Virus genome (UHGV): UHGV-1436539
Reading direction: 5' to 3' (one strand)
Source of the DNA: a virus
DNA length: 8,437 bases
The translations under genes and the position numbers were made by a program. The first letter of the stretch is position 1. The number at the start of each line of letters is the position of its first letter. Below, piece by piece: positions 141 to 8,437 of the stretch. The notes below the pieces were generated by a model that worked only from the letters and a program-made list of their open reading frames with translations, was not told where the DNA came from and did no database searches.

Positions 141-173
141 AGTGCGCATAATGTACGACTCGTTATGTTGAAA
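141..173 (+). other. Degenerate dif-like XerCD site at the left prophage junction, with expanded central region
   Basis: AGTGCGCATAA-TGTACGACTCG-TTATGTTGAAA. The XerC arm and the first 4 central nt match the canonical dif at 8385-8412 and the XerD arm matches 9/11, but the central region is 11 nt instead of 6. Confidence 0.7.
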
Positions 174-239: not shown

Positions 240-1502
240 TTATCCCTCTATTATATTTTCCCTTTCCAATACCTCACGAATTTGTTGGAATACAGCACTT
301 ATATTCCCTTTAGGGAATCTTATTTGCCCTAATCCATTTATGTTGGAGAACTCTTCACATCCGTCTTCAAGAAGAATGATTGCCCGTTCAAAGCCCAGCT
401 TACCTTGAAAAAGTCCTGCTTCATGTATGACATTCATTCTTGCTTGGACTTTTCCTTCTTGAGTTTCATCTTCGGCAGTCATCAAAATAAAGGCAAATGC
501 AGCCTGCTCTAACATTTGATTAAGCCTTGTTATGTTTGTCACCCCGGCAATTGATACTCTATTAAATTCATCATAGGGTTGATGCAATTTATCTTTTATG
601 AAATCTTTAAGTTCAAGCCAAAGCTTTGATTTCCCATGACCAATAAATATATTTATTCCCGCATCTTTTTCACGCATCATCTTCCCCTCTAAGTTATTGA
701 TATGCTTGTATAATTTATCAATAAGTTTTTGTAGTTCATTACAAGATGAGTATGCACCCATAACTTCTGCAACTCGAACCCTGAGATTAATGTGTGGTGG
801 TACTCGTATTCCTTCTTGTAATGCCATGTTATCAGAGCTGGTTACTTGTTTTGGAAGGAAAAGTGACAGAATTTGTTTTTCGGATAAGATTTTGCTGTTT
901 TCAATTTTAGATACTAAGTCTTCTAAAAATTTATCTTCAGGTGGAAGGCTTTTTTTCTGTGCATAATATAATGATAAAGCGTCACTTTTTAAATCGTTAA
1001 ATATTGAATTTACCTCATTTGCTTTTTTAATCTCTTCCAATAAATCTTCTTTAGTTAAGTCACACTTATTTAATATATAATCAGTTATTTGTTCTGGATC
1101 ATATTCTACCCAATCACCTATACTTTTCATTCCCTCGGTTAAATATCCACCCATATTTTGAAATGGGCTGTTAAATCCCCAATCCTTGTTAAACACCGCC
1201 CCAGTCGGAGGTTTTTGCAGGCCATTGTAATAGACCCTTGATTGATAGCCTATAAATGAACCTGACCAAGATTCATCTAGTTTACTGGTTAACGTTAAAA
1301 CTGATGAAAGTTTGCTCACATCATAGTTACTTAGCTTCTTTAACTTATCCATTAAATCAAGGTATTGATTTGCGCTCACTGTGTAATCTCCAAGCCTAAA
1401 ATTTGCACAATTTAAAACGTGCAGTGTAGGTAATACTGCACGTTTGTACCATTCGTGGTACTTAATCCTTTTGTTTGGAAGACATGAGATCTTCTGCTGC
1501 AT
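240..1502 (-). CDS. Two-domain protein: N-terminal domain of unknown function (~aa 1-280) plus C-terminal TIR-like (PF10137-type) putative effector domain; candidate defence or toxin effector
   Basis: Long minus-strand ORF (~420 aa from ATG at 1500-1502; the track's TTG at 1518-1520 would give 426 aa). The C-terminal region (plus-strand coordinates ~306-659) has the motif series IFIGHGKS ... AFAFILMTAEDE ... ARMNVIHEAGLFQGKLGFERAIILLEDG, which matches my recollection of the TIR-like family consensus (FIVHGHD ... FAVVLLTPDD ... RxNVIFELGYFxGKLGRxRV). No strong SD at any candidate start, so the start is uncertain. Confidence 0.6.
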   Translation of the reverse strand: MQQKISCLPNKRIKYHEWYKRAVLPTLHVLNCANFRLGDYTVSANQYLDLMDKLKKLSNYDVSKLSSVLTLTSKLDESWSGSFIGYQSRVYYNGLQKPPTGAVFNKDWGFNSPFQNMGGYLTEGMKSIGDWVEYDPEQITDYILNKCDLTKEDLLEEIKKANEVNSIFNDLKSDALSLYYAQKKSLPPEDKFLEDLVSKIENSKILSEKQILSLFLPKQVTSSDNMALQEGIRVPPHINLRVRVAEVMGAYSSCNELQKLIDKLYKHINNLEGKMMREKDAGINIFIGHGKSKLWLELKDFIKDKLHQPYDEFNRVSIAGVTNITRLNQMLEQAAFAFILMTAEDETQEGKVQARMNVIHEAGLFQGKLGFERAIILLEDGCEEFSNINGLGQIRFPKGNISAVFQQIREVLERENIIEG

Positions 1503-1644
1503 CTTTAGAGTAGTTATCAATCAGATAACCTAAAATCTCTGTCCATGTAATTGTTTTTCCTAGTTTTACACTGGCGTTTATAGCCAGTCGTTCTAGTTTC
1601 ATTTTTCTTTCTTCCGTCACGTTATAAGTCGTGCGCTTTGCCAT
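1462..1644 (-). CDS. Small (60 aa) putative ribbon-helix-helix (CopG/Arc-like) DNA-binding protein; candidate repressor or antitoxin
   Basis: ATG-initiated ORF divergent from gII. The N-terminus MAKRTTYNVTEERKMKLERLA has the basic beta-strand plus helix pattern typical of RHH proteins. It overlaps the 5' end of the downstream CDS 240-1502 (ATG at 1502) by ~40 nt, suggesting an operon. Confidence 0.5.
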   Translation of the reverse strand: MAKRTTYNVTEERKMKLERLAINASVKLGKTITWTEILGYLIDNYSKDAAEDLMSSKQKD

Positions 1645-2877: not shown

Positions 2878-3195
2878 ATGTCTAATTATGGTCTTTTCGT
2901 TAAGGGTAAAATGTTGGGAGCCCGCCAACGTAATAAAGTTAATGGTCAGGGCTATTATAATGAAATTGGTATTGGTCTTGAAATACCTGATGGTTTTGGT
3001 GGTACAAAGCAGGATCAAATTATTATTCGAGTTTCTCAAGCTCTCGTTAATGCAGGTCTAATGAACCAGGCGAATGCTTTCATTGGGAAATTAGTTCAAA
3101 TTCCTGTCTATGTCCGTGCATGGTCAATGGAGGGCAGGGAAGGTGTAACTTATAATGTTTCTTCCGATGGTGGCATCGCAGAGATCAAAGGTTAA
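2878..3195 (+). CDS. gV: Putative ssDNA-binding protein pV (assigned by position; sequence divergent)
   Basis: 105-aa ORF between gII and gVII with SD AAGGAAA upstream. Assignment rests on synteny with Ff phages; I do not see clear similarity to Ff gVp. Confidence 0.55.
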   Translation: MSNYGLFVKGKMLGARQRNKVNGQGYYNEIGIGLEIPDGFGGTKQDQIIIRVSQALVNAGLMNQANAFIGKLVQIPVYVRAWSMEGREGVTYNVSSDGGIAEIKG

Positions 3196-3398: not shown

Positions 3399-3641
3399 AT
3401 GAAAATTCTGTCTACTGTTAAATCTAAAGTTGCTCTGGCTTCAACTGCGCTTTTTGTTTCTGCAAGTTCTTTTGCGGCTGAAGGCGCTACAGGCGGTACT
3501 GATTATGCAGGTCAGGCAATGGATGCATTACTGACTCAGGCAAATGATCTCATTGGTAAAGTATGGCCTGTTGTTGTGGCTGTGGTTGGCGCTGGGCTTG
3601 CTATTCGTATTTTCAAAAAATTCTCTTCAAAAGCGGTTTAA
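3399..3641 (+). CDS. gVIII: Major coat protein pVIII precursor (80 aa; predicted 26-aa signal peptide, mature ~54 aa)
   Basis: Signal peptide ends ...SASSFA before AEG..., as in Ff pVIII. It has an acidic N-terminus, a hydrophobic core and a basic C-terminus [12 protein letters not shown], closely matching the Ff/IKe consensus ...FKKF(T/S)SKA. SD GGAG lies 8 nt upstream. Confidence 0.93.
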
Positions 3642-5249: not shown

Positions 5250-6344
5250 ATGGCGGTTCATGTAGTAACAGGCAAATTAGGCTCAGGTAAGACACTTGTT
5301 AGTGTTTCCCGAATACAGGAAAGACTTGCTAAGGGTTGTCCTGTTGCCACTAATCTTGATCTTAAATTGCATAATATGCCTATGGTTGGTCGTTATGCGA
5401 AAAAAACGCGCGTTATTCGCGTTCCTGATAAGCCTTCATTAAATGATTTACTGGCTATTGGTATTGGGAATACATCTTACGATGAATCCCGCAATGGCCT
5501 TCTGGTACTTGATGAATGTGGTACTTGGTTTAATTCCCGTTCATGGGGTGATAAAGACAGACAACCTGTTATTGACTGGTTTTTACATGCCCGTAAATTA
5601 GGCTGGGATATTATATTTTTGATTCAGGATATTTCGATAATGGATAAGCAAGCTCGTCTGGCGCTTGCTGAACATGTTGTTTATTGCCGACGTTCAGATA
5701 AATTAAATATCCCTTTTATTGGCTCCATTATGAATTTGGTTTCAGGGGCGCGATTTTCTTTACCAAAAGTACACTTTGGTATTGTTAAGTATGGTGACAA
5801 TATTAACTCAATCACTGTTGATAAGTGGATATATACCGGAAAATCTCTTTATTCTGCTTACAATACCAAACAAGCGTTCACAGATAATTATCCTCATGGC
5901 GCATTTTCGCTTTTGCCTCCATTTATCACACACGGTCAATTTTCTGTTCATAGGGGATTTAATTATTATATGCGCCTCACTAAAATTTATTTCCGTAAAT
6001 CGAATCGTCTTATATTAATGCTTTCTTTTCTGGTGCTGGGACTTGGTCTTGGTTTCTGGTTCCAGTCTGGAAAGAATGTTGATGAAATCACAGCTATTAA
6101 ATCTTCTTATGCTGAACAGGCGAGGGCGGTAACGCCTGATTCGTCCAGTGATTTACCCCGACTTTCTATTAATTCTTTTTCACAACTTGGTTTTGACGTT
6201 TCTGTTACATTTATTGATGCTAAAGGTATGAAATATCAGTATTTTGATTTAATTAAAGATGGTTATTCCGTTGATATTAAAGATGCCTGTCGTATTTTTA
6301 TCAGAAAAGGCCGTTATTTACAGACCGTTACCTGTCAGGAGTAA
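5250..6344 (+). CDS. gI: Assembly ATPase pI (Zot-like, 364 aa)
   Basis: Strong similarity to Ff pI throughout, including MAVxxVTGKLGSGKTLVSV (Walker A), LLVLDECGTWFNxRSW (Walker B region) and DWFLHARKLGWDIIFL. Confidence 0.95.
   Translation: MAVHVVTGKLGSGKTLVSVSRIQERLAKGCPVATNLDLKLHNMPMVGRYAKKTRVIRVPDKPSLNDLLAIGIGNTSYDESRNGLLVLDECGTWFNSRSWGDKDRQPVIDWFLHARKLGWDIIFLIQDISIMDKQARLALAEHVVYCRRSDKLNIPFIGSIMNLVSGARFSLPKVHFGIVKYGDNINSITVDKWIYTGKSLYSAYNTKQAFTDNYPHGAFSLLPPFITHGQFSVHRGFNYYMRLTKIYFRKSNRLILMLSFLVLGLGLGFWFQSGKNVDEITAIKSSYAEQARAVTPDSSSDLPRLSINSFSQLGFDVSVTFIDAKGMKYQYFDLIKDGYSVDIKDACRIFIRKGRYLQTVTCQE
5970..6344 (+). CDS. gXI: pXI-like protein from an internal in-frame start of gI (124 aa, membrane-anchored C-terminal part)
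   Basis: In-frame ATG at codon 241 of gI (MRLTKIYFRK...), the same codon position and local motif as the Ff gene XI start (MKLTKIYLKK). Confidence 0.55.
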   Translation: MRLTKIYFRKSNRLILMLSFLVLGLGLGFWFQSGKNVDEITAIKSSYAEQARAVTPDSSSDLPRLSINSFSQLGFDVSVTFIDAKGMKYQYFDLIKDGYSVDIKDACRIFIRKGRYLQTVTCQE

Positions 6345-6351
6345 TATTATT

Positions 6352-7617
6352 ATGCGCTCTTTTATTATTGCTTTTTTATTTACCTGTTCATTCTGCGTTT
6401 CTGCTGAAACTGTTAATTTAAATAATTCGTCTGTTCGCTCATTTGTTCAGTGGTATTCGTCAAAAACTGGCAAGCCTGTTATTGTTAATCCTGATGTTAA
6501 AGGGAACGTAACCGTATTTAATGCTGATGTTAACCCAACAAATATTGATGATTTCTTTAAGTCTGTTCTCAATGCTAACGGGTTTGTTATGCTTTCCGGT
6601 AATCCTGCGGTTGTCTCTTTGCCGTCTAAATTACCGTCACAAATGGCTTCTGACTCCGGCGACTCTGATAATCAGTCTTATGATTCTTTTCCTTCTGAGC
6701 CATCTTACCAGCCAGTACCTGTGGCGCTTACGGTCAGAAATTTTAAGCTGACAAAAGTTAGATCGTCCGATGTTCAGCAACTGATTAAAATTTATCTTGA
6801 TTCTAATGGTGGTGGTAATGTCGTGGATTATCCAGGCAATAACTCGCTGATTGTTTCTGCGCCTGACGAGCTGCTGCCGGTTCTGTCCGATTTTATCAAT
6901 TCTGTGGATGTTGCCCGCGATCAGGTTCTCATTCAGTCGCTGATGTTTGAAACCAGCTTGTCTGATGGCGTTGATTTATCGTTTGCGGCAGGTTCTGCAT
7001 CCGGTCATAAGGTTGCGGGGGGCTTTAATACTTCTGCACTGGGTAGCGCTCTTTCTACGGCGGGCGGTTCTTTTGGTATTTTTGATGGTAACGTGTTGGC
7101 GCTGTCTCTGCGTGCTGTCCAGAGTAATTCACGCTCTAAGGTGATTTCAACGCCGCGTATTCTTACTCAGTCTGGTCAGACTGGTTACATTTCCGTAGGT
7201 AAGAATGTGCCGTTTATCACCGGAAAGGTAACGGGCGAATCTGCCGGCGTAAATAATCCGTTTCAGACTATCGAGCGTCATGATGTTGGCGTTTCTCTCA
7301 AGGTAACGCCTGTTGTCATGGGTAACGGGCAACTAGTTCTGACTATCGACACTCGCGCTGATTCAATCAGCAATGATGATCAGGCATCCGATATTATTAC
7401 TAATCAGCGCCAGATTCAGACGACAGTCCAGATTAAGGATGGTCAGACGTTGTTATTGGGGGGGCTTATCGATTCATCGTTCAGCAATGCCGAGCGTTCA
7501 GTTCCAGTTATAAGTAAAATTCCTCTTATAGGCTGGATGTTCAGTAGCAAGGCAGACAGCAATGAACAGCGTATTATGTATATTTTGCTTACAGCACATA
7601 TCATTCGTCCACTTTGA
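6352..7617 (+). CDS. gIV: Outer-membrane secretin pIV (421 aa) for phage extrusion
   Basis: Signal peptide MRSFIIAFLFTCSFCVSA. Extensive similarity to Ff pIV, including the C-terminal secretin block VPFITGKVTGESAGVNNPFQTIER, QTLLLGGL and SKIPLIG. ATG at 6352 with SD AGGAG; the upstream track start overlaps gI and is rejected. Confidence 0.95.
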   Translation: MRSFIIAFLFTCSFCVSAETVNLNNSSVRSFVQWYSSKTGKPVIVNPDVKGNVTVFNADVNPTNIDDFFKSVLNANGFVMLSGNPAVVSLPSKLPSQMASDSGDSDNQSYDSFPSEPSYQPVPVALTVRNFKLTKVRSSDVQQLIKIYLDSNGGGNVVDYPGNNSLIVSAPDELLPVLSDFINSVDVARDQVLIQSLMFETSLSDGVDLSFAAGSASGHKVAGGFNTSALGSALSTAGGSFGIFDGNVLALSLRAVQSNSRSKVISTPRILTQSGQTGYISVGKNVPFITGKVTGESAGVNNPFQTIERHDVGVSLKVTPVVMGNGQLVLTIDTRADSISNDDQASDIITNQRQIQTTVQIKDGQTLLLGGLIDSSFSNAERSVPVISKIPLIGWMFSSKADSNEQRIMYILLTAHIIRPL

Positions 7618-7658
7618 TGGATAGCGGGTAGGTGCGTGAGCCCTGCTCGCTATCCATC
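7616..7658 (+). other. Stable hairpin immediately after gIV: candidate packaging signal or gIV transcript terminator structure
   Basis: Perfect 11-bp inverted repeat GATGGATAGCG (7616-7626) / CGCTATCCATC (7648-7658) with a ~21-nt loop and no following T tract. In Ff phages the packaging-signal hairpin lies directly after gene IV. Confidence 0.4.
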
Positions 7659-7686
7659 AAATGGACATTATTGATTGGGGTAACTA

Positions 7687-7995
7687 ATGGATTCTTATGG
7701 GATTTTATCTGCTCTGGCAGAACGAACGATTACAGCGGAAGAAGCAAAAACAATGACACTTGCAGCCAGAAGTTCTTCGGCTCAGGTAAATGAAGCATCA
7801 CTTGCTCTGTTACTGATTGATAATACTCTGGATGCGATCAAAGCAGCTGCCAGTGAAGGGAAAGGATACACTCTACTTCCTTCTTATGAGATTTCTGTAA
7901 AAGCCATTGATTTAGCAGAAGAATTTTTAAGGAAACAATGCGGCTATGTTATTGATAACCAGAATGGCGTAAGGACGGTCTATTGGTTTATATGA
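7687..7995 (+). CDS. Hypothetical protein (102 aa), accessory gene in the prophage right arm
   Basis: ATG-initiated ORF with a weak SD (GGGG) in the otherwise non-coding stretch between gIV and the right dif. I recognise no family. Confidence 0.45.
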   Translation: MDSYGILSALAERTITAEEAKTMTLAARSSSAQVNEASLALLLIDNTLDAIKAAASEGKGYTLLPSYEISVKAIDLAEEFLRKQCGYVIDNQNGVRTVYWFI

Positions 7996-7996
7996 T

Positions 7997-8041
7997 AACC
8001 CCGGACAGTGACAAAACTTGCTTTTGTTAGTGTCAGGGGTT
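7997..8041 (+). other. Long imperfect hairpin (~20-bp stem, 3 mismatches) followed ~20 nt later by a T7 tract (8062-8068); candidate terminator or replication/att-associated structure
   Basis: AACCCCGGACAGTGACAAAAC / TTTTGTTAGTGTCAGGGGTT inverted repeat with a 4-nt loop, visible in the sequence. Confidence 0.35.
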
Positions 8042-8112
8042 GGCCAAGCCGAACAATTCTGTTTTTTTAGCGTTATTGCTGATTCGGCGCGGCAGCATTA
8101 CGAGGAGATAAA

Positions 8113-8346
8113 ATGCAATTTTTCACATCCAGCGATACTGTAATGTTATGTGCGAAGACCTGCGATCGCTGTGGTCGCCATGCGAAGACGGTGGTAGATG
8201 ACATTGAGTTCAATGAGTTTCTGTCTGTTAATCACTTAGCTGGATACGGTTCAATTTTTGGTGACAGTAATCGCTTAAAACTAGATTTATGCCAACATTG
8301 CCTGAAAGACGTCCTGGGCCAGTGGATTACGGTCTGTGACCAATGA
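8113..8346 (+). CDS. Hypothetical small Cys-rich protein (77 aa), putative zinc ribbon
   Basis: Strong SD GAGGAG (8102-8107) 5 nt before the ATG. Cys pattern C-x3-C-x2-C ... C-x2-C (CAKTCDRCG ... CQHC). Function unknown. Confidence 0.55.
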   Translation: MQFFTSSDTVMLCAKTCDRCGRHAKTVVDDIEFNEFLSVNHLAGYGSIFGDSNRLKLDLCQHCLKDVLGQWITVCDQ

Positions 8347-8384
8347 CCGCACCGGTAACGCCAGTTCCCGCCATCCTTACCATT

Positions 8385-8412
8385 GGTGCGCATAATGTAT
8401 ATTATGTTAAAT
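8385..8412 (+). other. dif: Canonical dif site (XerCD chromosome-dimer resolution site) forming the right prophage junction
   Basis: Exact match to the E. coli dif 28-mer GGTGCGCATAA-TGTATA-TTATGTTAAAT as I know it. Confidence 0.85.
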
Positions 8413-8437
8413 TGAGTGTATGTGCGTAAGCAAACCT

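What the first reader, a model, noticed from the sequence alone, without database searches (positions are those of the whole stretch)
7687..8346. Two small accessory ORFs (102 aa and a 77-aa Cys-rich putative zinc-ribbon protein) between gIV and the right dif
In Ff phages the segment after gIV is the non-coding intergenic region holding the origin and packaging signal. Here it carries two ORFs, one with an excellent SD (GAGGAG) and a C-x3-C-x2-C ... C-x2-C cysteine pattern. They could be cargo (morons), regulators of the integration or lysogeny state, or a second small addiction or anti-defence module. I recognise no family for either.
Basis: seen in the sequence. Interest (0 to 1): 0.5.

Follow-up and report, generated by a model that had tools for sequence, protein, structure and literature searches.

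The report
Two accessory genes of filamentous prophage
The two small genes after the secretin gene of this dif-integrated filamentous prophage are real and conserved. They were already published as the unexplained genes h1 and h2 of the 'UPφ' phages; the new result is that h2 belongs to a very large, unnamed family of acidic four-cysteine proteins on phages, plasmids and transposons.

Summary
Both ORFs exist exactly as described: 7687-7995 (102 aa) and 8113-8346 (77 aa, GAGGAG 5 nt before the ATG). Both are under strong purifying selection (dN/dS 0.05-0.13) and match function-unknown PHROGs (E 2e-68 and 4.5e-46).

New points:
- h1 and h2 are separable. h1 occurs only in UPφ-type genomes. h2 occurs without h1 in other inoviruses, tailed-phage contigs, plasmids and chromosomes.
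- h2 belongs to an unannotated family of at least 1,238 cluster representatives. It has four near-invariant cysteines (C17, C20, C60, C63) and a GYGSxFGDG loop, and 95% of domains are acidic.
- The only domains fused to it are antitoxin-type (PF09722, DUF4926, TacA).
- The ancestral intergenic hairpins remain. The IKe-like packaging hairpin sits before h1. A second structured element, supported by covariation, sits between h1 and h2 and accompanies h2 on other replicons.

Best guess: two independent cargo genes, with h2 a small zinc-stabilised protein-binding or neutralising factor. A toxin-antitoxin pair, a DNA-binding regulator and an enzyme are all less likely. Function remains untested.

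The parts
7613..7661 (+). Hairpin I1 (20-nt arms, 9-nt loop) spanning the gIV stop codon. It is the homologue of the IKe 'stem loop, potential transcription termination, morphogenetic signal'.
   Evidence: the repeat finder. Alignment with IKe 6125-6215 and L006 shows a shared core CGGGTAGGTGCG..AGCCCTGC. IKe annotation.
7687..7995 (+). h1: 102-aa acidic (pI 4.7) cytoplasmic protein found only in UPφ-type inoviruses. Predicted alpha/beta fold with a weakly winged-helix-like C-terminal half.
7997..8041 (+). Hairpin I2: 20-bp stem starting 2 nt after the h1 stop. It is conserved with compensatory changes across different replicons.
   Evidence: 7 of 20 pairs with double changes, 92.5% of cells paired; DNA fold -22.6 kcal/mol, z -3.8.
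8043..8093 (+). Second helix I4 (arms 8043-8053 / 8083-8093) enclosing a T-rich loop. It is part of the same conserved element and of the h2 leader.
   Evidence: (3 of 9 pairs with double changes, 81% paired).
8102..8107 (+). Shine-Dalgarno GAGGAG, 5 nt before the h2 start codon.
   Evidence: Sequence. Conserved as GAGGAG, GAGGGG, GAGGGA or AGGGA in the homologous leaders of L002, L010, L011 and L016.
8113..8346 (+). h2: 77-aa acidic (pI 5.4) protein with four conserved Cys (C17, C20, C60, C63) and a GYGSxFGDG loop. Member of a large unannotated family carried on mobile elements.
   Evidence: phrog_5435, E 4.5e-46; 1,238 representatives at E<=1e-3; dN/dS 0.045-0.12.
8385..8412 (+). Exact E. 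coli dif site (attR side), 38 nt after the h2 stop. It marks the right end of the prophage.
   Evidence: 0 mismatches; 0 expected by chance.

Best explanation
The window is a dif-integrated inovirus of the published UPφ group. Its morphogenesis genes are IKe-like. By the UPφ paper's comparison, its gII/gV replication genes are YpfΦ-like.

The two ORFs are that group's conserved accessory genes h1 and h2. They are real protein-coding genes inserted between the cis-acting hairpins of the ancestral intergenic region. The order is: packaging/terminator hairpin, h1, a second two-helix structured element, h2, attP/dif.

They are two independent cargo genes rather than a two-component system. h1 is a lineage-restricted, acidic alpha/beta protein. 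h2 is one member of a very large, unannotated family of small acidic proteins that bind zinc (inferred) through CxxC...CxxC. The family is spread over filamentous and tailed phages, plasmids, Tn7-like elements and chromosomes. The same domain also forms the N-terminal module of proteins whose C-termini are antitoxin-type toxin-binding domains.

Inferred mechanism (not shown): h2 acts as a zinc-stabilised protein-binding module. It would be a small inhibitor or neutraliser of a host or rival-element protein (antitoxin-like or anti-defence-like), expressed from the prophage or episome. It is not an enzyme, a toxin or a DNA-binding repressor.

The stated confidence covers the whole statement. By component: real genes about 0.95; identity with UPφ h1/h2 about 0.9; independence of the two genes about 0.8; the protein-binding/neutraliser mechanism about 0.35.
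For: Real genes:
- Full-length PHROG matches.
- dN/dS of 0.05-0.13.
- 49 complete E. coli genomes carry the region.

UPφ identity:
- GGGES-repeat pIII, and gI/gIV about 77-80% identical at DNA level to I2-2/IKe.
- Two ORFs in the IKe intergenic position and reverse-strand cargo next to dif, as described in PMC7307601.
- Strain ECONIH2 from that paper holds the same h1-h2 DNA at three places.

Independence of the two genes:
- h1 without h2 in Salmonella prophages L006-L008 and in L083.
- h2 without h1 directly after gIV in other inoviruses L010, L011/L016 and L091-L093.
- h2 without h1 on plasmids (L002, L012-L014), in tailed-phage contigs and in chromosomes of many phyla.
- No conserved neighbour across 60 genomic and 41 viral loci.

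h2 family and zinc site:
- 1,238 representatives at E<=1e-3 and 611 at E<=1e-10.
- C17, C20, C60 and C63 are 96-100% conserved.

Protein-binding rather than DNA-binding:
- 95% of 155 family domains are acidic, median pI 4.9.
- The conserved side chains are mostly acidic: D18, E32, E35, D51, D58.

Link to neutralising modules: among 146 representatives, every significant fused Pfam domain but one is antitoxin-type. These are PF09722 Xre/MbcA/ParS_C (8), DUF4926 (2) and TacA (1). The exception is a single weak double-zinc-ribbon (DZR_2) match at E 7.7e-4.
Against: - The fusion partners could equally mean that the domain is the thing being neutralised. In L035, L036, L042, L043 and L048 an Xre-HTH/DUF2384 antitoxin-like gene lies just upstream of an h2-like gene, which is the slot normally held by a toxin.
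- The two PF09722 fusions examined sit in Tn7-like cargo with no recognisable RES/ART toxin nearby. Their status as antitoxins is itself unproven.
- The diverged h1 allele (61% identical) coincides with loss of h2, while gIV stays 95% identical. This could instead mean that h1 and h2 are functionally coupled.
- No promoter was detected for either gene by the simple consensus scan.
Confidence: 0.5

Rival explanations
1. h1 and h2 form a type II toxin-antitoxin (addiction) pair. The upstream acidic h1 would be the antitoxin and the small zinc-ribbon h2 the toxin. The pair would stabilise the episome or prophage.
For: - The gene order, a small acidic protein first, fits the usual TA layout.
- h2-like genes sometimes follow an Xre-HTH/DUF2384 antitoxin-like gene (L035, L036, L042).
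- The domain is fused only to antitoxin-type domains, as in fused toxin-antitoxin proteins.
- The UPφ authors thought the two genes probably interact.
- The divergent h1 allele coincides with absence of h2.
Against: - The genes are separated by 117 nt that hold a strong conserved hairpin element, not translationally coupled.
- h2-like genes stand alone, with no conserved partner, in the great majority of about 100 loci examined. A free toxin would not be tolerated.
- h2 directly follows gIV without h1 in at least three other inovirus lineages.
- No catalytic-looking conserved His or other nuclease-type motif is present.
- Neither protein matches a PADLOC or TA family.
Confidence: 0.1
2. h2, and possibly h1, is a DNA-binding regulator of the phage. 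It would control lysogeny, replication, or Xer-mediated integration and excision at the adjacent dif/attP site.
For: - Position next to attP/dif.
- In the fusion proteins the h2-like domain sits N-terminally, where antitoxins usually carry their DNA-binding domain.
Against: - Both proteins are acidic: pI 4.7 and 5.4, and 95% of the h2 family is acidic.
- The putative recognition helix of h1 is acidic.
- Some h2-like fusion proteins appear to carry an excisionase-type HTH (L034, L042, read by eye and not scanned).
- Most h2 relatives are in elements that do not integrate at dif.
- The phage already has a small repressor-like gene next to gII (h3, 1462-1644).
Confidence: 0.15
3. h1 and/or h2 are host-directed fitness or virulence factors, occupying the position that ctxAB holds in CTXφ. 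They would change host physiology in urinary-tract or invasive E. coli.
For: - They occupy the slot after the assembly genes and next to attR, as ctxAB does in CTXφ and YPO2280a/YPO2281 do in YpfΦ.
- UPφ prophages are enriched in urinary isolates.
- Many of the E. coli hits are human isolates.
Against: - Neither protein has a signal peptide or transmembrane segment (sequence), so neither is an exported toxin.
- h2 relatives are found in environmental Betaproteobacteria, Desulfobacterota, Chloroflexi and archaeal MAGs. A host-animal-specific role cannot explain the family.
- No similarity to any known virulence factor.
Confidence: 0.1
4. The ORFs are incidental. The conserved feature would be the DNA or RNA structure of the old intergenic region (packaging signal and origins), with the reading frames arising by chance.
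For: - Two conserved hairpin elements do lie in the segment.
- No promoter was found.
Against: - dN/dS is far below 1, with synonymous sites saturated.
- h2 has thousands of protein-level relatives with conserved residues.
- The hairpins lie outside the ORFs.
Confidence: 0.02

Closest known systems
h1 and h2 of UPφ901 / 'UPφ viruses' (Shapiro & Putonti, Virus Evolution 2020, PMC7307601)
   Same: Same phage type, same position (the region that is intergenic in IKe, I2-2 and M13) and same neighbours (dif, reverse-strand cargo, GGGES-repeat g3p). Strain ECONIH2 from that paper carries the same h1-h2 DNA at three places.
   Different: Nothing differs in the two genes. The variable cargo on the other side of dif does differ: here it is a TIR-domain protein instead of h4/h5. 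The paper reported no homologues outside UPφ prophages; this study finds that to be true for h1 but not for h2.
YPO2280a / YPO2281 of YpfΦ and their CUS-1 homologues
   Same: Two small ORFs of unknown function immediately adjacent to attR of a dif-integrated enterobacterial inovirus.
   Different: No homology was detected. The motif scan of one genome per species returned no Yersinia locus, and the UPφ paper found homology to YpfΦ only for gII and gV. A direct alignment was not done because no YpfΦ sequence was fetched.
ctxAB slot of CTXφ
   Same: Accessory cargo between the assembly genes and attR of a Xer-dependent filamentous prophage.
   Different: ctxAB encodes a secreted AB5 toxin. h1 and h2 are small cytoplasmic acidic proteins with no signal peptides.
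Antitoxins of the Xre-RES / ParS-ParT / MbcA-MbcT type (PF09722 C-terminal toxin-binding domain), DUF4926 and TacA antitoxins
   Same: The h2-like domain is found fused N-terminally to these antitoxin domains in 11 of 146 family representatives.
   Different: The window's h2 is the bare 77-aa domain with no PF09722, DUF4926 or TacA part. No RES, ParT or GNAT toxin lies next to it, and no toxin was seen next to the two fusions examined.
MqsA N-terminal zinc-binding (YgiT-type) domain
   Same: A small CxxC...CxxC domain at the N-terminus of an antitoxin that binds a protein partner. This is an architectural analogy only.
   Different: No sequence relationship was found.
Intergenic region of phage IKe (morphogenetic signal and minus-strand origin hairpins)
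   Same: Hairpin I1 aligns with the IKe morphogenetic/terminator stem-loop at the gIV stop. Further hairpins follow downstream, as in IKe.
   Different: The I2/I4 element does not align with the IKe minus-origin hairpins.

Membership tests
UPφ viruses (Lineavirus-like dif-integrating inoviruses), genes h1/h2 | IKe/I2-2-like gI-gIV and g3p with GGGES repeats | tested here: met
   gI is 76.8% and gIV about 80% identical at DNA level to I2-2/IKe. [15 protein letters not shown] is present in pIII.
UPφ viruses (Lineavirus-like dif-integrating inoviruses), genes h1/h2 | Two conserved ORFs in the region that is intergenic in IKe/I2-2/M13, with dif and reverse-strand ORFs next to them | tested here: met
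   The same DNA is in ECONIH2 at three places, matching the published tandem triple.
UPφ viruses (Lineavirus-like dif-integrating inoviruses), genes h1/h2 | Direct sequence identity to the deposited UPφ901 h1 and h2 | not tested
   The UPφ901 sequence is not in the phage collection searched. Identity is inferred through ECONIH2 and the description in the paper.
Zinc ribbon (CxxC...CxxC, four-ligand zinc knuckle pair) | Two CxxC pairs conserved across the family | tested here: met
   C17 96%, C20 99%, C60 100%, C63 100% in 157 sequences.
Zinc ribbon (CxxC...CxxC, four-ligand zinc knuckle pair) | Zinc actually bound, and a zinc-ribbon fold | tested here: inconclusive
Type II toxin-antitoxin pair | Two adjacent, co-transcribed, usually overlapping genes that always co-occur | tested here: not met
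   There is a 117-nt spacer with a conserved hairpin element. h1 occurs without h2 and h2 without h1 in many loci.
Type II toxin-antitoxin pair | One partner toxic, the other neutralising | not testable with these tools
   This needs expression assays.
Xre/MbcA/ParS-type antitoxins (PF09722) | C-terminal PF09722 toxin-binding domain | tested here: not met
   The window's h2 has no PF09722 match. Only longer relatives carry it.
Known anti-phage defence or anti-defence components (PADLOC-DB 2.0, PHROG functional categories) | Significant match to a catalogued model | tested here: not met
   h1 has no PADLOC hit. h2 has only a chance-level Cas8b hit at E 0.023. Both PHROGs are 'unknown function'.
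Winged-helix DNA-binding proteins (for h1) | wHTH fold with a basic DNA-contacting surface | tested here: inconclusive

The most novel reading that the evidence does not exclude
h2 would represent a previously unrecognised, very widespread family of small acidic zinc-binding inhibitor proteins carried by phages, plasmids and transposons. The family would be a new antitoxin-like or anti-defence module.

In addition, the covarying two-hairpin element that accompanies h2 would be a portable single-strand DNA signal, such as a complementary-strand priming site. It would be shared between ssDNA phages and conjugative plasmids, marking genes that arrive in a new cell on single-stranded DNA.
Probability: 0.2. 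Interest if true: 0.6.

Novelty: already known. Interest (0 to 1): 0.3.

Why it matters
UPφ prophages sit at dif in roughly 1% of complete E. coli genomes (49 of 5,426 here). They are also reported in Salmonella, Klebsiella, Citrobacter and Yersinia, with an excess in urinary isolates. h1 and h2 are their only universally conserved non-core genes, and the original authors named their characterisation as the first open task.

Three results narrow that task:
- The two genes can be studied separately.
- h2 is not phage-specific but belongs to a family of more than a thousand sequence clusters that no database names.
- The domain keeps company with antitoxin modules and is acidic, which argues for a protein target rather than a DNA target.

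If h2 proves to be an inhibitor of a host toxin or defence protein, the family would add a sizeable new entry to the catalogue of counter-defence genes. If not, these remain ordinary orphan cargo genes.

Tried and rejected
Searches that found nothing useful:
- Pfam, NCBIfam and PADLOC scans of h1 and h2 gave nothing above threshold.
- A profile search of all PDB sequences with the h2 family gave only generic C2H2 or ribosomal zinc-finger noise, E>=0.026.
- Foldseek of the h1 model against BFVD found only uncharacterised phage proteins, E>=6e-3.
- The afdb50 fold library was not available.
- tblastn of both proteins against 50,697 GenBank phage records found no match. UPφ genomes are not deposited there as phages.
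- Rfam on 7560-8437 gave only sub-threshold miRNA-hairpin noise on I1.
- The promoter/terminator consensus scan found no terminator and one promoter-like site inside dif.
- A literature search for a zinc-ribbon/DUF2384 antitoxin link, and for follow-up work on UPφ h1/h2, found nothing relevant.

Hypotheses rejected:
- MqsA N-domain homology: hhalign probability 0.5%.
- A His-Me/HNH mini-nuclease reading of h2: considered because of the CxxC...CxxC spacing and a beta-beta-alpha prediction. Rejected because no conserved histidine or asparagine is in the expected places.
- A GDSL 'FGDS' motif in h2: the serine is not conserved, and the family consensus is FGDG.
- A conserved partner gene for h2: all-against-all clustering of neighbours in 60 genomic loci gave only antisense artefacts and local relatives. 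Pfam scans of neighbours in genomic and viral loci gave a mixed bag of mobile-element genes.
- Homology of the I2/I4 element with the IKe minus-strand origin: no convincing alignment.

Full report
**What is there.** The window is a complete filamentous prophage. The gene order is as follows.
- A reverse-strand 426-aa TIR-domain gene at 240-1520.
- A reverse-strand 60-aa gene at 1462-1644.
- gII (1772-2866; Phage_CRI and G2P_X_C domains) and gV (2878-3195).
- The small coat genes, gVIII (3399-3641) and gIII with GGGES repeats.
- gVI, gI (5250-6344) and gIV (ending at 7617).

An exact 28-nt E. coli dif site lies at 8385-8412. A degenerate dif-like site lies at 141-173. Between gIV and dif are the two ORFs of the finding: 7687-7995 (102 aa) and 8113-8346 (77 aa). 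GAGGAG lies 5 nt before the second start codon.

**Are they genes?** Yes.
- Each matches a PHROG of unknown function over its full length (E 2e-68 and 4.5e-46).
- RefSeq annotates both as hypothetical proteins.
- 49 of 5,426 complete E. coli genomes contain at least 80% of 7600-8437; the top listed hits are about 99% identical.
- Against diverged homologues, dN/dS is 0.13 for the 102-aa ORF. This comparison is with a Salmonella allele that is 61% identical, and synonymous sites are saturated.
- For the 77-aa ORF, dN/dS is 0.045-0.12 against homologues 77-82% identical. The adjacent gIV gives 0.07.

**Already published.** The phage matches the 'UPφ viruses' of Shapiro & Putonti (2020, PMC7307601).
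- Its morphogenesis genes are IKe/I2-2-like.
- The paper reports gII and gV as YpfΦ-like.
- Strain ECONIH2, described in that paper as a tandem triple lysogen, contains the h1-h2 DNA at three places.

The authors found no homologues outside UPφ prophages. They listed characterisation of h1 and h2 as the first item of future work. A full-text search found no follow-up. The finding is therefore a rediscovery, and what follows is what can be added.

**The intergenic signals are still present.** A hairpin with 20-nt arms (7613-7661) spans the gIV stop codon. It aligns with the stem-loop annotated in IKe as 'potential transcription termination, morphogenetic signal', sharing the core CGGGTAGGTGCG..AGCCCTGC.

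A second element starts directly after the h1 stop. It consists of a 20-bp hairpin (7997-8041) followed by a second helix (8043-8053 with 8083-8093). This element is conserved in eight loci on different replicons.
- 89% of cells are paired, against 32-50% when the partner columns are slid.
- Ten pairs show changes on both sides, against 3.9 in shuffles (0 of 500 shuffles reach this).
- It folds better than shuffled sequence as single-stranded DNA on the + strand (-22.6 kcal/mol, z -3.8).
- Its conserved G·T pairs favour the + strand over the complement.

In every fetched locus that has the motif, it lies either just 3' of h1 or just 5' of an h2 homologue. It is kept in Salmonella prophages that have h1 but no h2, and on a plasmid contig that has h2 but no h1. 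It does not align with the IKe minus-origin hairpins and is not a canonical intrinsic terminator. Its role is unresolved. Candidates are a complementary-strand initiation signal, an atypical terminator, or the h2 leader.

**h1.** Homologues are few, about ten clusters in 5.8 billion proteins. All lie in UPφ-type genomes, immediately after gIV. Two allele types exist, about 61% identical to each other, while the adjacent gIV is 95% identical. This points to cassette exchange with a breakpoint near the packaging hairpin.

**h2.** The word-indexed search found only 14 relatives. A profile search of 1.84 billion cluster representatives found 1,238 at E<=1e-3 and 611 at E<=1e-10. tblastn found copies on Klebsiella, Proteus, Providencia, Ralstonia, Variovorax and other plasmids.

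In 157 aligned members, C17, C20, C60 and C63 are 96-100% conserved. So are D18, E32, E35, G44, Y45, S47, F49, G50, D51, G52, D58, Q61 and G69. C13 and C75 of the window protein are not conserved. The signature is CDRCG ... ExxEF ... GYGSxFGDG ... DLCQHC ... LGxWLR.

Of 155 family domains, 95% are acidic, with median pI 4.9. Pfam, NCBIfam, PADLOC and PDB sequences do not recognise the family. The structural model is too weak to place it.

**Where h2 occurs.**
- Without h1, directly after gIV in at least three other inovirus lineages: L010; L011/L016; and L091-L093.
- On a plasmid contig with StbA/ParM, UmuDC, YubE and a methylase.
- On 7-kb Proteus plasmids next to a SIR2 gene, on Klebsiella IncF plasmids, and on Ralstonia pRSI13.
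- In tailed-phage and very large viral contigs, inside co-directional arrays of small ORFs near methylases, terminases and homing endonucleases.
- In chromosomes of Beta- and Gammaproteobacteria, Bacteroidota, Desulfobacterota, Chloroflexi and archaeal MAGs, next to TniQ, transposases, integrases, KfrA, Lar and GNAT genes.

No neighbour is conserved across loci.

**Fusions.** About a third of the listed representatives are longer than 110 aa, with the h2-like domain at the N-terminus. Of the four significant Pfam families found among 146 representatives, three are antitoxin domains: PF09722 (8 proteins), DUF4926 (2) and TacA (1). The fourth is one weak double-zinc-ribbon match.

In several betaproteobacterial loci, an Xre-HTH/PF09722 antitoxin-like gene precedes an h2-like gene. 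Two PF09722 fusions examined lie in Tn7-like cargo with no recognisable RES-type toxin.

**Interpretation.** Three observations argue against h2 being a toxin, and so against h1-h2 being an addiction pair:
- the h1-h2 spacer holds a conserved structured element;
- the two genes occur apart;
- h2 relatives mostly stand alone.

The acidity of the whole family, its conserved acidic residues, and an apparent excisionase-type HTH seen by eye in some fusion proteins argue against a DNA-binding regulator. The lack of conserved catalytic-type residues in a roughly 60-residue core argues against an enzyme.

The remaining reading is a zinc-stabilised protein-binding module. As a free protein on mobile elements it would act as a small inhibitor or neutraliser. 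As a fusion it would cooperate with other toxin-binding domains. This is an inference from distribution, composition and domain company only. I put it at about one in three. The toxin reading, the regulator reading and a host-directed fitness role each stand at roughly one in ten, and the remainder is unassigned.

**Verdict.** It is wrong in treating the two genes as a likely pair and in the cysteine motif. The finding as stated is already in the literature. The size and spread of the h2 family, its antitoxin-domain fusions, and the portable hairpin element are new but modest leads.

Noticed in passing
window 240-1520 (- strand): The variable cargo slot on the other side of dif holds a 426-aa protein. 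Its C-terminus is a CAP12/Pycsar-effector TIR domain (PF10137, E 4.8e-23), and it also matches PADLOC PDC-S35 and PycTIR models. Other UPφ copies carry different cargo in the same slot: a Doc-family toxin in the 7,938-bp Salmonella episome NZ_CP140410.1, and an ECs_2282 zinc-binding protein plus two hypotheticals in UM146. The slot seems to collect toxin- or defence-effector-like genes with no obvious partner other than the small upstream gene.
   Followed up: partly
window 1462-1644 (- strand): A 60-aa gene (phrog_2503, E 3.7e-34) equivalent to 'h3' of UPφ lies between gII and the cargo, and its ORF overlaps the start of the TIR ORF. By eye it looks ribbon-helix-helix-like. It could be the phage repressor (the YpfΦ review calls the equivalent YPO2273 RstR-like), the regulator or antitoxin of the downstream cargo, or both. 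No Pfam or NCBIfam hit.
   Followed up: no
window 7997-8093; also L002 3849, L010 8007, L011 2406, L012 5886, L020 5913, L006 10316: A two-helix structured element with clear covariation occurs between h1 and h2. It accompanies h2 into other inoviruses, a plasmid contig and a Klebsiella chromosome, and stays behind with h1 where h2 is absent. Conserved G·T pairs place the structure on the + (viral, sense) strand. Its function is unknown; candidates are a single-strand initiation signal, an atypical terminator or a leader.
   Followed up: partly
window 141-173: The left-end dif-like site AGTGCGCATAA-TGTACGACTCG-TTATGTTGAAA has good XerC and XerD arms but an 11-nt central region instead of 6. 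The right end is a perfect dif. It is followed at 174-210 by a GC-rich inverted repeat (GGCCGCTGCG...CGCAGCGGCC) that could terminate the reverse-strand cargo gene.
   Followed up: no
L006/L007 10313-10726 (Salmonella enterica prophage): A UPφ variant has gIV 95% identical to the window but h1 only 61% identical, and about 400 nt of unrelated sequence in place of h2 before dif. The whole post-gIV segment therefore behaves as an exchangeable cassette. The replacement sequence holds only short ORFs (up to 60 aa) of unknown status.
   Followed up: partly
L015 (JARKOR010000214.1, labelled MAG Candidatus Nanosynbacter sp.): A contig binned as a Saccharibacteria MAG carries UPφ genes. Its h2 is 100% identical to the window and its gIV is nearly identical. 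This is almost certainly an enterobacterial contig mis-binned into the MAG.
   Followed up: no
L013 1880-4940 (Proteus terrae plasmid pZF2-7kb) and related 7-kb Proteus/Providencia plasmids: An h2 homologue (55% identical) lies divergently next to an 845-aa SIR2-family gene on a small plasmid that also carries a RelE/ParE pair. Together with the TIR cargo near h2 in this window, this is a second case of an NAD-related effector domain in the vicinity of h2. It may be coincidence.
   Followed up: no
L002 3962-5156 and L045 5623-6853: In a plasmid contig and a Thiobacillus MAG, an h2-like gene is followed within a few hundred bases by a GNAT acetyltransferase gene. One family member is fused to a TacA antitoxin domain, and TacA antitoxins pair with GNAT toxins. 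This hints that some h2-like proteins work with GNAT toxins.
   Followed up: no
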